DNA from: Mustelus asterias
Lineage: Eukaryota
Direction: 5' to 3'
NCBI RefSeq assembly: GCF_964213995.1
Contig: NW_027590501.1
Location: 248,001-294,000, forward strand
DNA: 46,000 nt
Position numbers and translations under genes: made by a program. Positions 7,575-38,859 of this stretch are shown here, one piece after another. The notes under the pieces are model-generated. The model ran no database searches. It was not told the origin of the DNA and saw only the letters and a list, made by a program, of their open reading frames with translations. The stretch's first letter is position 1; the number at the start of each line of letters is the position of its first letter.

Positions 7575-10500
7575 TCACTTGTGAACTCGCTGGTGTCTCA
7601 GCAGGAGGGATGAACTGGTGAATTTCTTCCCACACACAGCAGCTGTGAATGGACTGGTGGATCATCAGTTCCTGAGAGCTTTTGAAACCATTCCCACAGT
7701 CAGAGCATTTAAAGGGTCTCTCCTGGGTGTGAGGGACATTGTGCATCAGCAGCTGGGGTATCGAGTGAATCCTTCCGCACACACAGAGCAGGTGAATGGT
7801 CTCTCCCAGTGTGAACCTGCTGGTGTCTCCTCAGTGTGCATGTCCTTCCAAACCTCTTTGTGCAGTGAGAGCAGCTGAACGGTCTCTCCCCAGTGTGAAT
7901 GCGCTGGTGATCTATCAGATGCTCAGAAATTTTGAAGCCACTCCCACAGTCGGAGCATTTAAAGGGTCTTTCCTGGGAGTGAGTGACTTTGTGTCTGTGC
8001 AGGCTGGATAACCGAGTGAATCTGTTCCCACACTCGGAGCAGGTGAACGGTCTCTCCCCGCTGTGAACTTGCTGGTGAGTCAGCAGGGTGGATGACTGAG
8101 TGAATCCCTTCCCACACTCGGTGCAGGTAAATGGTCTCTCCTCGGTGTGAAGGCGCTGGTGTGTCAGCAGGGTGAATGACTGACTGAATCCCTTCCCACA
8201 CACAGAGCAGATGAACGGTCTCTCCCTGGTGTGAACTCGCTGGTGTCTCTGCAGTGTGGATGACCTCTTAAACCTCTTTGTGCAGAGAGAGCAGCTGAAC
8301 GGTCTGTCCTCAGTGTGAATGCGCTGGTGGGACACCAGTTCCCCAGAAATTTTGAATTCACTCCCACAGTCCGAGCATTTAAAGGGCCTCTCACTGGTGT
8401 GAGTGACTTTATGACTCAGCAGGTTGGGTAAATTAGTGAATCCCTTCCCACACACAGAGCAGGTGAATGGCCTCTCTCCGGTGTGAACTCGCTGGTGTGT
8501 CAGCAGGGCGGATAACTGCGTGAATCCCTTCCCACAGTCAGAGCAAGTGAATGGTCTCTCCCCGGAGTGAACTCGCTGGTGGTTCCATAAGACCATAAGA
8601 CATAGGAGCGGAAGTAAGGCCATTCGGCCCATCGAGTCCACTCCACCATTCAATCATGGTTGATTTCAACTCCATTTACCCGCTCTCTCCCCATAGCCCT
8701 TAATTCCTCGAGAAATCAAGAATTTATCAATTTCTGTCTTGAAGACGCTCAACGTCTCGGCCTCCACAGCCCTCTGTGGCAATGAATTCCACAGACCCAC
8801 CACTCTCTGGCTGAAGAAATTTCTCCTCATCTCTGTTCTAAAGTGACTCCCTTTTATTCTAAGGCTGTGCCCCCGCGTCCTAGTCTCCCCTGTTAATGGA
8901 AACAACTTCCCTACGTCCATCCTATCTAAGCCGTTCATTATCTTGTAAGTTTCTATCAGATCTCCCCTCAACCTCCTAAACTCCAATGAATATAATCCCA
9001 CGATCCTCAGACGTTCATCGTATGTCAGGCCTACCATTCCTGGGATCATCCGTGTGAATCTCCGCTGGACCCGCTCCAGTGCCAGTATGTCCTTCCTGAG
9101 GTGTGGGGCCCAAAATTGCTCACAGTACTCCAAATGGGGCCTAACCAGTGCTTTATAAAGCCTCAGAAGTACATCCCTGCTTTTGTATTCCAAGCCTCTT
9201 GAGATAAATGACAACATTACATTTGCTTTCTTAATTACGGACTCAACCTGCAAGTTTACCTTTAGAGAATCCTGGACTAGGACTCCCAAGTCCCTTTGCA
9301 CTTTAGCATTATGAATTTTGTCACCGTTTAGAAAATAGTCCATGCCTCTATTCTTTTTTCCAAAGTGTACGACCTCGCACTTGCCCACGTTGAATTTCAT
9401 CAGCCACTTCTTGGACCACTCTCCTAAACTGTCTAAATCTTTCTGCAGCCTCCCCACCTCCTCAATACTACCTGCCCCTCCACCTATCTTTGTATCATCG
9501 GCAAACTTGGCCAGAATGCTCCCAGTCCCGTCATCTAGATCGTTAATATATAAAGAGAACAGCTGTGGCCCCAACACTGAACCCTGCGGGACACCACTTG
9601 TCACCGGTTGCCATTCTGAGAAAGAACCTTTTATCCCAACTCTCTGCCTTCTGTCTGACAGCCAATCGTCAATCCATGTTAGTACCTTGCCTCGAATACC
9701 ATGGGCCCTTATTTTACTCAGCAGTCTCCCGTGAGGCACCTTGTCAAAGGCCTTTTGGAAGTCAAGATAGATAACATCCATTGGCTCTCCTTGGTCTAAC
9801 CTATTTGTTATCTCTTCAAAGAACTCTAACAGGTTTGTCAGGCACGACCTCCCCTTACTAAATCCATGCTGACTTGTCTTAATCCGACCCTGCACTTCCA
9901 AGAATTTAGAAATCTCATCCTTAACGATGGATTCTAGAATTTTGCCAACAACTGAGGTTAGGCTAATTGGCCTATAATTTTCCATCTTTTTTCTTGTTCC
10001 CTTCTTGAACAGTTCCGCAGGTTTGATGATGATCTAAATCTCATTGTGCAGAGAGAGCAGCTGAACGGTCTGTCCTCAGTGTGAATGCGCTGGTGGGACA
10101 TCAGATCCCGAGAACTTTTGAAGCAACTCTCACAGTCAGAGCATTTAAAGGGTCTCTCATTGGTGTGAGTGACTTTGTGCGTCAGCAGGGCGGATGACCG
10201 AAAGAATCCCTTCCCACACACATTGCAGGTGAACGGTCTCTCCCCAGTGTGAATTCGTTGGTGTGCCCGCAGTTCGGAGGACCGAGAGAATCCCTTCCCA
10301 CACATGGAGCAGCTGAACGGCCTCTCCCCGGTGTGGACCCGCTGATGTCTCCGCAGTGTGGATGACCATTTAAATTTCATTGTGCAGTGAGAGCAGCTGA
10401 ATGGTCTCTCCTCACTGTGAATGCGCTGGTGGGACACCAGTTCTCCAGAGCTTTTGAATCCGCTCCCACAGTCAGAGCATTTAAAGGGTCTCTCATTCGT

Positions 10501-10665
10501 GTGAGTGAGATTGTGACTCAGCAGGTGGGAGAACTTAATGTATCCCTTCCCACACACTGAGCAAGTGAAGGGTCTCTCCCGAGTGTGACTGCGTTGATGA
10601 ATTTCCAAATCACAGGGCAACATGAATCCTTGTCCACAATCGTCACACTTCCACAGTTTCTCCAT
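7575..10665 (-). pseudogene. ZNF-A: tandem C2H2 zinc-finger gene (about 20 fingers) disrupted by a CR1 insertion in finger 8 and a frameshift near 7805
   Basis: ORFs 9958-10665, 7709-8653 and 7537-7782 with CxxC..HxxxH and TGERPF linkers; removing the CR1 restores RSSSNLRNHQRVH; stop (HK*) at 7575-7577. Confidence 0.92.
8587..10011 (-). mobile_element. Young CR1 LINE with an uninterrupted RT-domain ORF, inserted into the ZNF-A coding exon
   Basis: 439-aa open ORF 8666-9985 (YLDFQKAFDKV, GVPQGSVLGP, FADD); GTTCC duplicated at 8582-8586 and 10012-10016. Confidence 0.97.
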
Positions 10666-11725
10666 GATGCGGGTGTCCTTGTGACTCTCCGGGTTTGATG
10701 ATCAGTTGAATCCTTGTCCACACAGAACACGTGTACGATCTCTCTTCACTGTAAACGGTGCAATGTTGTTTCAGCCTGTGTAACTGGTTAAAGCTCTTTC
10801 CACTATCAGTGGACTGGAACACTCTCACTCGGGTGTGTTCCAGTCACACTGATGTTTAAAATCTCCTGAAGCAAACAGATCAGACAAACATTGCTTTTCT
10901 AGATTCAAAGGTCGATGATATTCAGGTCCCAATAAATCGAATGACTCTGTCAAATCTTCACGTGATGTTTAGTTTGAAATTTCTGTCTGTAAATCCTCAC
11001 CTCCTGATATCTATGAAAGGAATTTACAACAGACATCACTGTCAGTACAGGATAGAAATTCAGAACAGACAATTCTAATTTCTATGGAACATTCTTTCCT
11101 CTCTCATTCCCCAAAATCTGTCAATCTCCATCCCACACACTCTCCCACAATTCTCACTCTGCTCTCCTGAGTATACAACCTCCCAAGTCTATTGAAGGTG
11201 CTGATTCAGGCTGATTAACGGATCCATGCTGACCACTTTCTGTATTGGACACAGAGATCTGAAAATCTACGTGTAACGACTGGCCTACACACTAGAAATT
11301 AAAATCTGAGCCATATGTGGGACCAGATAACTGGATTGGGAGAAAGAGAAGGTTGTGGGGAAGAATATTATTTTGGTGCAGAAAGGTCATTACCTGGAAG
11401 CCACTGCCTCAGAGGGTTGTGGAAGTGCAAATGATCCATGATTAATCTTCAAGCTGACAGCCACGTTAAAGTTTTACATTTGGACATAAATGAGCAGACT
11501 GATGATGTGTGTAATGCACTGTATTACCTGGTTACAGATACATGAAGAATGTGAGGCGGATTTTTATTTAGACAGCGAGTGGTGACCTGGAAGTTAAAAA
11601 TTCAACAAGTCCCCAATTTCCCCCAGAATGCAAAAGAAACACAAAAGCAAAGAAAGTGTTTTACTCACAGATGTTGGCCTCTTTTAGGTCAAAAGGAGTT
11701 CACAAACTATTTTTCAAATTGACAT

Positions 11726-11798
11726 CGAGCCAGCCAGGAGTCGAACCTGGAATCTTCTAATCCGTAATCAGACGTGTTATCCATTGCGCCACTGGCCC
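11726..11798 (-). tRNA. tRNA-Arg(ACG), variant copy, possibly a pseudogene
   Basis: 73 nt GGGCCAGTGGCGCAATGG..ACG..GGTTCGACTCCTGGCTGGCTCG; three changes versus the vertebrate Arg-ACG sequence as I recall it (D-stem mismatch, C32T, one G-U pair in the anticodon stem); A and B boxes intact. Confidence 0.9.
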
Positions 11799-11940
11799 AC
11801 ACTCTCACAGATGCTAGAGACAGAAGGAAGTTTGTGTCTGTCTGAAGCTCAATCTTCATTCAGAGAGAGAAGCAGCAGCTTTGCTGGGCAGGAATGAGCA
11901 GCTGAACAAGCTCATTGTCCACTTCCGCATTCAGACAATG

Positions 11941-37926: not shown

Positions 37927-38127
37927 GTAAGAAGTCTCACAACACCAGGTTAAAGTCCAACAGGTTTATTTGGAATCACAAGCTTTCAGAGCGCTGCCCC
38001 TTCATCAGGTGAGAAGGAGCAGCGCTCTGAAAGCTTGTGATTCCAAATAAACCCATTGGACTTTAACCAGGTGTTGTGAGACTTCTTACTGTGCCCACCT
38101 CAGTCCAACACCGGCATCTCCACATCT
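37927..38127. mobile_element. Penelope-derived hairpin element with a 13-bp target duplication
   Basis: About 80-bp inverted arms; TATGCACCATATA at 37914-37926 and 38128-38140. Confidence 0.85.
37977..38011 (-). ncRNA. Minimal type I hammerhead ribozyme motif (Penelope type)
   Basis: CAC-CUGAUGA-A-GGGGC AGC GCUCU-GAAA-GC-UU-GUG: catalytic boxes, stem II, palindromic AGCU, stem I CAC/GUG. Confidence 0.6.
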
Positions 38128-38492
38128 TATGCACCATATAACAACACCAGACATATCAATGTTGTTACGATCCTCATGGTCACCTTATAATAAACAAATT
38201 CCCACAAATCCCAATGGAATAAACTGAAAGACAATGTTTCATTTTTTAAAAATTTTACTTTAAAAATTAATCTAAAATTAACATCACTGAATCATGCATT
38301 AAGAAACAGTATTTGAATAGACAGGATAAATTACACTTTACAAAGTTCAGACAATAAAAACAGGTTCCACAAAATCACAAACATTTTCTCCCTCAGTATA
38401 TTTAGCTCTCATTCCAGTTCCAGAGAATTTCTCTGTCTCTGTATTTCCCAGGAGAGAAAGAAAGTGTTTTCCTCACAGATGTGCCCAGAGGA

Positions 38493-38697
38493 TGAAGTTT
38501 GAGTCTGTGGTGAAGTTTGAGTCTGTGTGTGAAGTTTAAGTCTGTGGTGAAGTTTGAGTCTGTGGTGAAGTTTGAGTCTGTGGTGAAGTTTGAGTCTGTG
38601 GTGAAGTTTGAGTCTGTGTGTGAAGTTTGAGTCTGTGGTGAAGTTTGAGTCTGTGGTGAAGTTTGAGTCTGTGGTGAAGTTTGAGCCTGTGGTGAAG
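38493..38697. repeat. 18/19-bp minisatellite (TGAAGTTTGAGTCTGTGG), 11 units
   Basis: Direct tandem repeat; the unit matches the single-copy ZNF first-exon motif GAAGTTTGAGTCTGTCTGAAG near 24003. Confidence 0.95.
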
Positions 38698-38859
38698 CTA
38701 CAAACAGAAGCTGTGCTGTTTCAAATCAAACTGCGGGACTTGGAAGAAAATGCTGGGAAGAGATTTTGCAATCCTCCCAGGCAGCGTACTCCAGACTGTC
38801 ACCGCCCTCTGGGTAAACAGGCTTTCCTCACATTCCCCCGAAACCTCCTGTCCCTCACC

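What the first reader, a model, noticed from the sequence alone, without database searches (positions are those of the whole stretch)
7575..38700. Strictly alternating array of ZNF genes in head-to-head pairs, with no effector domain
Seen: seven paralogous units A(-) B(+) C(-) D(+) E(-) F(+) G(-) share exon, intron and 3'UTR sequence. Pairs A/B, C/D and E/F each flank a promoter-like region. The proteins start at MEKPWKC-like sequence with no KRAB, SCAN or BTB domain, and only B and C are intact. Known: KRAB-ZNF expansions are characteristic of lobe-finned vertebrates. Inference: a fast birth-and-death ZNF family that duplicates as bidirectional pairs, possibly a KRAB-independent transposon-recognition system.
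Basis: partly seen in the sequence, partly recalled or inferred. Interest (0 to 1): 0.7.

Follow-up and report, generated by a model that had tools for sequence, protein, structure and literature searches.

The report
Finger-only shark genes sharing two-way promoters
This shark-type DNA holds seven back-to-back members of a family of at least several hundred genes for proteins made only of DNA-reading zinc fingers; their DNA-contacting positions change unusually fast, so they likely form a repeat-recognising repertoire that works without the silencing domain used in mammals.

Summary
The seven units, their alternating strands and the two intact genes (B, C) are real. Strict alternation is local: 65 of 92 neighbouring arrays alternate in about 1 Mb sampled. 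Head-to-head promoter sharing is general: a promoter core lies in 27 of 32 divergent gaps and 0 of 33 convergent ones. The pair is not a fixed unit: the compared window units are 19-25% apart, blocks of many genes are copied, and partners are exchanged. An upstream effector exon is unlikely: an in-frame stop lies 13 codons before the start in 60 of 70 gene heads, behind a frameshifted leader of three dead fingers. Base-contacting positions show dN/dS 1.6-2.0 against 0.34 elsewhere. One dead finger in the leader is the best-kept non-coding stretch, a likely family-wide control element. Transposon binding and divergent transcription are untested. At least 791 exact copies of the start motif exist genome-wide. 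The scan noted this family before on other DNA of this and other genomes; no paper on it surfaced in ten searches.

The parts
7290..11700 (-). Unit A: leader exon donor near 11668, ATG 10665, 7 fingers running into a LINE, remaining fingers 7575-8584, 3' UTR; disrupted
   Evidence: a sibling at C87:248103 without the LINE has 17 fingers in one frame
8585..10013 (-). Young 5'-truncated reverse-transcriptase LINE (CR1-like, label recalled) inside A
   Evidence: RVT_1 E=2.5e-33; 99% to window 940-1355
11726..11798 (-). tRNA-Arg(ACG)-derived copy inside the first exon of A, between two copies of the splice-donor motif, followed by a short tail shared with a LINE 3' end
11830..12230 (.). A/B promoter-like module (two CCAAT boxes, NRF1-like site; motif names recalled)
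   Evidence: recurs between divergent genes elsewhere
12239..12309 (+). tRNA-Gly(GCC)-derived copy just before the exon-1 donor of B
12330..14250 (+). Unit B: leader exons, acceptor 12767, dead-finger leader, in-frame stop 13087-13089, ORF 13126-13965 (279 aa, 10 fingers, the sixth one codon short of the C87 copy), 3' UTR; intact
12996..13023 (+). Conserved non-coding box in dead finger -2 of B; also at 10773-10800 (A), 22069-22096 (C), 25108-25135 (D), 31169-31196 (F), 36990-37017 (G), 0-2 mismatches in 28
20790..24030 (-). Unit C: exon-1 donor at 23984, exon 2 ending near 23887, acceptor 22310, ORF 21959-20949 (336 aa, 11 fingers plus a degenerate twelfth), 3' UTR; intact
24030..24440 (.). 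C/D promoter-like module (CCAAT boxes on both arms, TGACGTCA, GC 0.59), leader exons about 490 bp apart
24440..25920 (+). Unit D: ATG 25226, frameshift after finger 4; disrupted
26090..26890 (-). Unit E: ATG 26318, two full fingers, leader partly deleted, 3' part lost in a C-rich low-complexity join to the end of D
28595..28993 (.). E/F promoter-like CpG island of a third type (CpG o/e 0.95), recurring between other genes of the family
30690..32460 (+). Unit F: acceptor 30941, ATG 31291, nonsense codon 31687-31689; disrupted
35950..38700 (-). Unit G: degenerate array without the start codon, acceptor 37235, exon-1 donor near 38483 preceded by a short tandem repeat; no promoter core or partner upstream

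Best explanation
The window is a slice of a very large shark family of finger-only C2H2 genes whose DNA-contacting residues diversify faster than silent sites and which mostly sit back to back around shared promoter-like modules, and they likely act as a fast-changing repertoire that binds repeats and transposons without a separate silencing domain. Shown: the reading frame starts at an ATG made from an old finger linker; everything upstream, including three dead fingers, is frameshifted and closed by an in-frame stop; the family grows by copying multi-gene blocks, and copies die by LINE insertion, frameshift and deletion; related genes are found with different head-to-head partners, with breaks inside the promoter or at the exon-1 donor. 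Inferred: each module fires both ways and non-coding exons 1 and 2 splice to the single coding exon; the near-identical leader exons on both arms, plus a LINE that inserts at the exon-1 donor, give the substrate for partner exchange; a conserved box in the dead finger -2 is a shared control site, perhaps for feedback by family members; the proteins work by occupying their sites, or recruit cofactors through finger surfaces.
For: Orientation 65 of 92 alternating. Promoter core in 27 of 32 divergent, 0 of 33 convergent, 15 of 27 tandem gaps. Stop 13 codons before ATG in 60 of 70 heads; ATG in 60 of 70, ACCATGG in 52; indels 1.19 per 100 nt per gene upstream against 0.08 in the first 170 coding nt. 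Pfam finds only zinc-finger-type and DUF models on B and C, none of KRAB, SCAN, BTB (25 of 31 families shown for C). Database models from four shark genera carry the same leader; three end at the same stops (P0017, P0018, P0021) and their upstream parts do not resemble each other by eye. Two contigs of probable RNA runs from other organisms join the exon-1 donor (23984) or exon 2 (23887) to the predicted coding-exon start (table 5c). dN/dS at -1, 2, 3, 6 is 1.57, 1.77 without CpG sites, 2.17 in finger 1 alone, against 0.34 at other sites (15 gene pairs); 202 fingerprints among 348 distinct fingers. Window block present at 99.3% over 51.5 kb on another contig. Partner different in 20 of 26 comparisons; 4 of 14 A-type arms lose the B side inside the promoter and 2 of 6 evaluable C/D copies break at the C exon-1 donor. 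Leader box 1.8 changes per column against 4.4 for the non-coding mean, permutation p=2e-4, 39 representatives. Wells et al. report the ZNF-transposon link as independent of accessory domains (PMC10547256, Discussion read).
Against: No binding target is known; nothing here ties the fingers to transposons rather than satellites, promoters or each other. The six youngest pairs (<5% apart) show dN/dS 0.27-0.44 at contact sites, so diversification is seen only among the nine older pairs, where fingers were matched by index and may not all be orthologous. Five of seven units here, and up to 58 of 98 sampled arrays, are not intact. RNA evidence is from other species' paralogs, unstranded, with RNA status a guess, and shows joins for the C-type arm only. 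AG dinucleotides exist in the last 36 nt before the ATG (3 in B, 5 in C), so a weak acceptor there is not formally excluded. Regions were chosen through promoter hits and contain duplicates, so counts are not independent. On short time scales pairs do travel together (10 of 14 A-type arms keep a B side).
Confidence: 0.6

Rival explanations
1. Mostly passive by-product: the genes ride along in an unstable, segmentally duplicating region (with LINEs, tRNA copies and antigen-receptor V segments); head-to-head order is just inherited from an ancestral pair, and most copies do nothing.
For: Many broken copies; 96-99% block duplicates on several contigs; V segments and tRNA copies are carried in the same blocks. 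Tandem C2H2 mRNAs are degraded through ribosome collision in zebrafish (PMC11620358, abstract only).
Against: Frame and start codon are kept (15-fold fewer indels than the leader); dN/dS 0.34 at non-contact sites and above 1 at contact sites need translation and selection.
Confidence: 0.15
2. Finger-only transcription regulators of host genes or of the family itself (competitors, insulators or feedback factors) whose diversification is not driven by transposons.
For: A family-wide conserved box in the genes' own leader (67 of 71 matches lie before a finger) suggests self-directed regulation; no silencing domain is present; KZNFs also bind satellites, promoters and other KZNFs (PMC10547256, Discussion).
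Against: Rapid change at contact residues and hundreds of copies fit an arms race better than stable host targets (inference).
Confidence: 0.18
3. A hidden N-terminal effector exists: an unrecognised upstream exon is spliced to a weak acceptor between the stop and the ATG, or the stop is read through.
For: The leader looks like a former coding spacer plus three fingers, and a 66-nt upstream exon-like piece would be in frame with it (sequence inspection); AGs exist before the ATG.
Against: Frameshifts throughout the leader (219 of 262 indel events); dead finger -2 intact in 6 of 39; none of the best 150 genome hits to the spacer has an open frame over 103 aa; observed joins use the upstream acceptor.
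Confidence: 0.07

Closest known systems
KRAB-ZNF clusters of lobe-finned vertebrates
   Same: Clustered tandem C2H2 arrays in one large coding exon, birth and death, positive selection on base-contacting residues (PMC10547256 passages).
   Different: No KRAB or other domain; upstream exons are non-coding; start codon derived from a finger linker; most genes share two-way promoter modules.
FiNZ-ZNFs of cyprinid fish (Wells et al. 2023, PMC10547256; passages and Discussion read)
   Same: Lineage-specific expansion to hundreds of copies, diversifying contact residues, located among transposons, immune genes and RNA genes (zebrafish 4q).
   Different: FiNZ genes carry an N-terminal domain; here finger 1 begins at residue 7. 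Repression of transposons is shown for FiNZ, untested here.
Silkmoth chorion A/B gene pairs (PMC4639761, passages read)
   Same: A gene family expanded as divergent pairs under common promoter regions.
   Different: Chorion pairs join two different gene classes and keep their pairing; here both arms are the same family, at least three promoter types occur and partners are exchanged.
Automatic shark gene models named 'zinc finger protein 239-like' (P0003, P0005, P0022-P0025)
   Same: Same first finger and leader; P0005 begins with the same seven residues as B and C.
   Different: Names come from similarity only; no organisation, selection or function is attached to them.

Membership tests
KRAB-ZNF | N-terminal KRAB domain | tested here: not met
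   No KRAB hit on B, C or the promoter-spanning frames; in-frame stop before the start. The genome-wide KRAB search had a blank control and is no evidence.
KRAB-ZNF | Tandem C2H2 array with TGEKP-type linkers in one exon | tested here: met
KRAB-ZNF | Diversifying selection at -1, 2, 3, 6 | tested here: met
   dN/dS 1.6-2.0 overall, 0.27-0.44 in the youngest six pairs; counting method, not codon models
KRAB-ZNF | Binding and repression of transposons through TRIM28 | not testable with these tools
   needs ChIP and knockdown
FiNZ-ZNF or KRAB-like ZNF of ray-finned fish | Conserved N-terminal FiNZ or KRAB-like peptide | tested here: not met
   No room: first cysteine at residue 7 and a stop upstream. 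No FiNZ profile itself was run.
SCAN-ZNF or BTB-ZNF | SCAN or BTB domain | tested here: not met
   No hit
Divergent gene pairs on a bidirectional promoter | First exons under 1 kb apart on opposite strands around a shared module | tested here: met
   A/B donors about 680 bp apart, C/D about 490 bp; not shown for E/F
Divergent gene pairs on a bidirectional promoter | Initiation in both directions | tested here: inconclusive
   Only unstranded contigs of other species; joins seen for the C-type arm only
Chorion-type pair duplication | The pair is the stable unit of duplication | tested here: not met
   Partner differs in 20 of 26 comparisons; window pairs unrelated; kept in 10 of 14 A-type arms on a short time scale

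The most novel reading that the evidence does not exclude
Sharks run a transposon-recognition system of thousands of effector-less zinc-finger proteins that is reshuffled at its promoters: shared two-way modules with mirrored leader exons let gene bodies swap partners, a LINE targeting exon 1 helps break them, and a dead finger kept in the untranslated leader serves as a family-wide feedback switch.
Probability: 0.22. Interest if true: 0.8.

Novelty: new variant of a known kind. Interest (0 to 1): 0.52.

Why it matters
Cartilaginous fish are reported to lack KRAB-domain families (PMC8455134 and PMC11603059, passages read), yet this genome holds a very large, positively selected zinc-finger repertoire. 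If these finger-only proteins control transposons, recognition without a fused repressor is a third vertebrate solution beside KRAB and FiNZ, and it bears on how such systems began. The shared promoter modules and the leader box give concrete handles (one morpholino site, one reporter element) for testing a whole family at once.

Tried and rejected
Strict alternation as a cluster rule: rejected (27 of 92 neighbours are tandem). Window built by copying one pair: rejected (A-C 22%, B-D 21%, no closer than A-B 21%; G could not be anchored). Genome-wide KRAB search: 0 of 76 candidates, but the control rang nowhere, so no evidence. Expression of this locus: no RNA holder listed; this blank is no evidence. 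Depth differences were not used. Dead finger -2 as a coding or folded element: intact in 6 of 39, kept at all three codon positions, no consensus structure. Finger 1 as a fixed partner-binding module: its contact positions vary (dN/dS 2.17), though P1, S2 and E5 are kept. Second subfamily (start MEGK, 19 candidate loci examined, about half real): spacer also frameshifted in most, no shared upstream coding frame. Pfam gave no hit on the two frames of the exon-1 LINE, so its Tx1-like label rests on recalled motifs and scan notes. L005, L007 and L010 were not evaluable (strand). The V-segment query was on the wrong strand and was redone. One search timed out and was redone. Literature searches listed no paper on this family; subscription papers and all supplements were not seen and may mention it.
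Full report
Setting. The window is the end of a 294-kb contig of a 3.68-Gb genome. The leader of these genes finds relatives only in shark models among named hits (Pristiophorus, Heterodontus, Carcharodon, Scyliorhinus; 9 named of 11 hits), so I call it shark-type. I fetched the rest of the contig and 750 kb from three other contigs around promoter hits, about 1.04 Mb in all; a 57-kb part of C87 that duplicates this contig was left out of the orientation, promoter, partner, intactness and selection counts.

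Observation. Seven arrays alternate in strand as described. B and C are open from the ATG to the family's usual end; A is split by a young LINE, D is frameshifted, E truncated, F has a nonsense codon, G lacks the start. Each divergent gap holds a promoter-like module; E/F has a third, CpG-rich type that recurs elsewhere in the family. G has a first exon but no promoter core or partner; two close relatives of G are paired elsewhere.

Orientation. Of 92 neighbouring arrays, 32 are divergent, 33 convergent and 27 tandem; 71% alternate (binomial p=5e-5, overstated because duplicates are not independent). Divergent gaps are shorter (median 3.8 kb against 6.5-6.8 kb). A promoter core lies in 27 of 32 divergent, 0 of 33 convergent and 15 of 27 tandem gaps; 28 of 53 cores have a divergent gene on both sides within 8 kb. 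So head-to-head sharing is the family's usual layout, and the strict run here is its upper tail.

Unit of duplication. In the gene head the six anchored window units are 19-25% apart, with no A-C or B-D affinity. The window lies in a block found at 99.3% over 51.5 kb on C87 (allele or duplicate cannot be told), and four other loci share the whole 3.7 kb around the C/D promoter at 96-99%. Among 27 promoter-sharing pairs, 26 comparisons involve genes of one family (93% or more, single linkage): the partner is also of one family in 6 (three pair matches seen from both sides) and different in 20; some of the 20 may reflect loss of the true partner. C-like genes sit with at least four partner families. 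Of 14 A-type arms, 10 keep a B side and 4 break inside the promoter; 2 of 6 evaluable C/D copies break at the C exon-1 donor. The leader exons on the two arms are near-identical inverted copies. Inference: pairs travel together in blocks and are re-paired over longer times by breaks at the promoter or exon 1.

No effector. The start motif is an old finger linker: upstream lie a spacer and three dead fingers. In 70 aligned heads a stop stands 13 codons before the ATG in 60 (TGA 49, TAA 11), the ATG is kept in 60, and indels run at 1.19 per 100 nt per gene upstream (219 of 262 frame-shifting) against 0.08 in the first 170 coding bases. Models from Pristiophorus and Heterodontus end at the stop in dead finger -3 and one from Carcharodon at the stop in dead finger -1, so the breaks are old (inference). 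Among the best 150 of 2,976 genome candidates for the spacer no open frame exceeds 103 aa. In contigs of two probable RNA runs from other organisms, the exon-1 donor (23984) or exon 2 (23887) is joined to letters matching the predicted coding-exon start (table 5c; 12 of 28 rows shown). These are paralogs, unstranded, RNA status guessed. A weak acceptor in the last 36 nt is not formally excluded. A second subfamily keeps dead finger -1 alive and starts at MEGK, also without a domain.

Selection. From 52 open frames I formed 15 non-overlapping pairs up to 15% apart. Counting sites, dN/dS is 1.57 at -1, 2, 3, 6 (p=7e-6 against synonymous sites), 1.77 without CpG sites, 2.0 with a framework filter, 2.17 in finger 1 alone (p=0.006), and 0.34 elsewhere. 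The six pairs under 5% give 0.27-0.44, the nine older pairs 2.0-3.1. Frames were preselected for intact Cys and His and fingers matched by index. 40 of 98 arrays pass a strict intactness rule; 23 could not be anchored, so this is a lower bound.

Family size. One 26-nt start motif has 791 exact matches genome-wide, reversed control 0; 15 of 98 sampled arrays carry it exactly, which would imply a few thousand copies, alleles included (extrapolation).

A conserved box in the dead leader. Dead finger -2 is better kept (mean pairwise identity 0.84) than intron, spacer and the other dead fingers (0.72-0.74) and than coding finger 1 (0.79) across 39 representatives, yet is an intact finger in only 6. 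On a tree the best 30-nt window has 1.8 changes per column against 4.4 for the non-coding mean; maximum-window permutation p=2e-4; no consensus fold. I spotted it by eye before testing. It is in six of seven units with 0-2 mismatches in 28, and 67 of 71 matches in the sample precede a finger; a 26-nt core has 1,016 exact genome matches. Its centre resembles MYB and Grainyhead sites (recalled, untested). A shared control element is the likeliest reading; local gene conversion is not excluded, and broken genes keep it too. One scan note on another genome found no special conservation of the leader as a whole.

The tRNA copies. Those in A and B sit in exon 1 and are followed by a short tail and the donor. 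That tail-plus-donor has 101 exact genome matches; of 30 examined, 14 follow a tRNA-Arg-derived copy, 13 follow the 3' end of a LINE-like element seen at C469:39.4-41.9 kb, and 3 follow neither. This fits earlier scan notes of a tRNA-headed LINE that targets exon 1; Pfam did not name the element.

Mechanism and comparison. Shown: finger-only frames under purifying and diversifying selection, shared promoter-like modules, block copying, partner change. Inferred: two-way transcription, repeat or transposon targets, action by occupancy or by cofactors bound through fingers. It works like KRAB-ZNF and FiNZ-ZNF expansions (PMC10547256, passages and Discussion) but fails their defining domain test; its layout recalls silkmoth chorion pairs (PMC4639761, passages) without fixed pairing. 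Ten literature searches listed no study of this family. The scan has noted it repeatedly; those notes are leads, not support.

Verdict. Real, biologically active family; first reading partly right; a new variant of a known kind; interest 0.52.

Noticed in passing
window 42597-43092 (+): Intact antigen-receptor V gene segment with leader exon and a perfect 23-spacer recombination signal; V-set by Pfam, best single-domain structure hits are T-cell receptor alpha chains. Related V segments lie among the ZNF genes in four of five regions; the C87 copy is 92% identical in protein inside a 99.3% block.
   Followed up: partly
G000:C469:39396-42017 (L035): Internally deleted LINE-like element with a tRNA-Val-derived head, inserted at a ZNF exon-1 donor; third tRNA type at that site.
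   Followed up: partly
window 38500-38700 (-): Tandem repeat of a 16-18 nt unit taken from exon 1 itself, directly before the donor of G; also in G's relatives.
   Followed up: no
window 24470-24490 (+): All ten D-type promoter arms listed carry GG instead of GT at the exon-1 donor, so this arm likely splices from exon 2.
   Followed up: partly
window 16045-17056 (-): Broken frames that look like the integrase end of an LTR retroelement (recalled motifs); observed only.
   Followed up: no
G000:C469:27046-35070: Four tRNA genes or copies (Lys, Gln, Glu, Glu) at the edge of the cluster, without ZNF promoter arms.
   Followed up: no
G000:C145:200001-400000: Large inverted duplications give mirror-image gene pairs at 95-99% identity.
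   Followed up: no
window 12554-12610 and 24680-24739 (+): Exon-like piece with an ATG and a short frame of up to 19 codons, well kept among paralogs; possible upstream ORF or former coding exon.
   Followed up: partly
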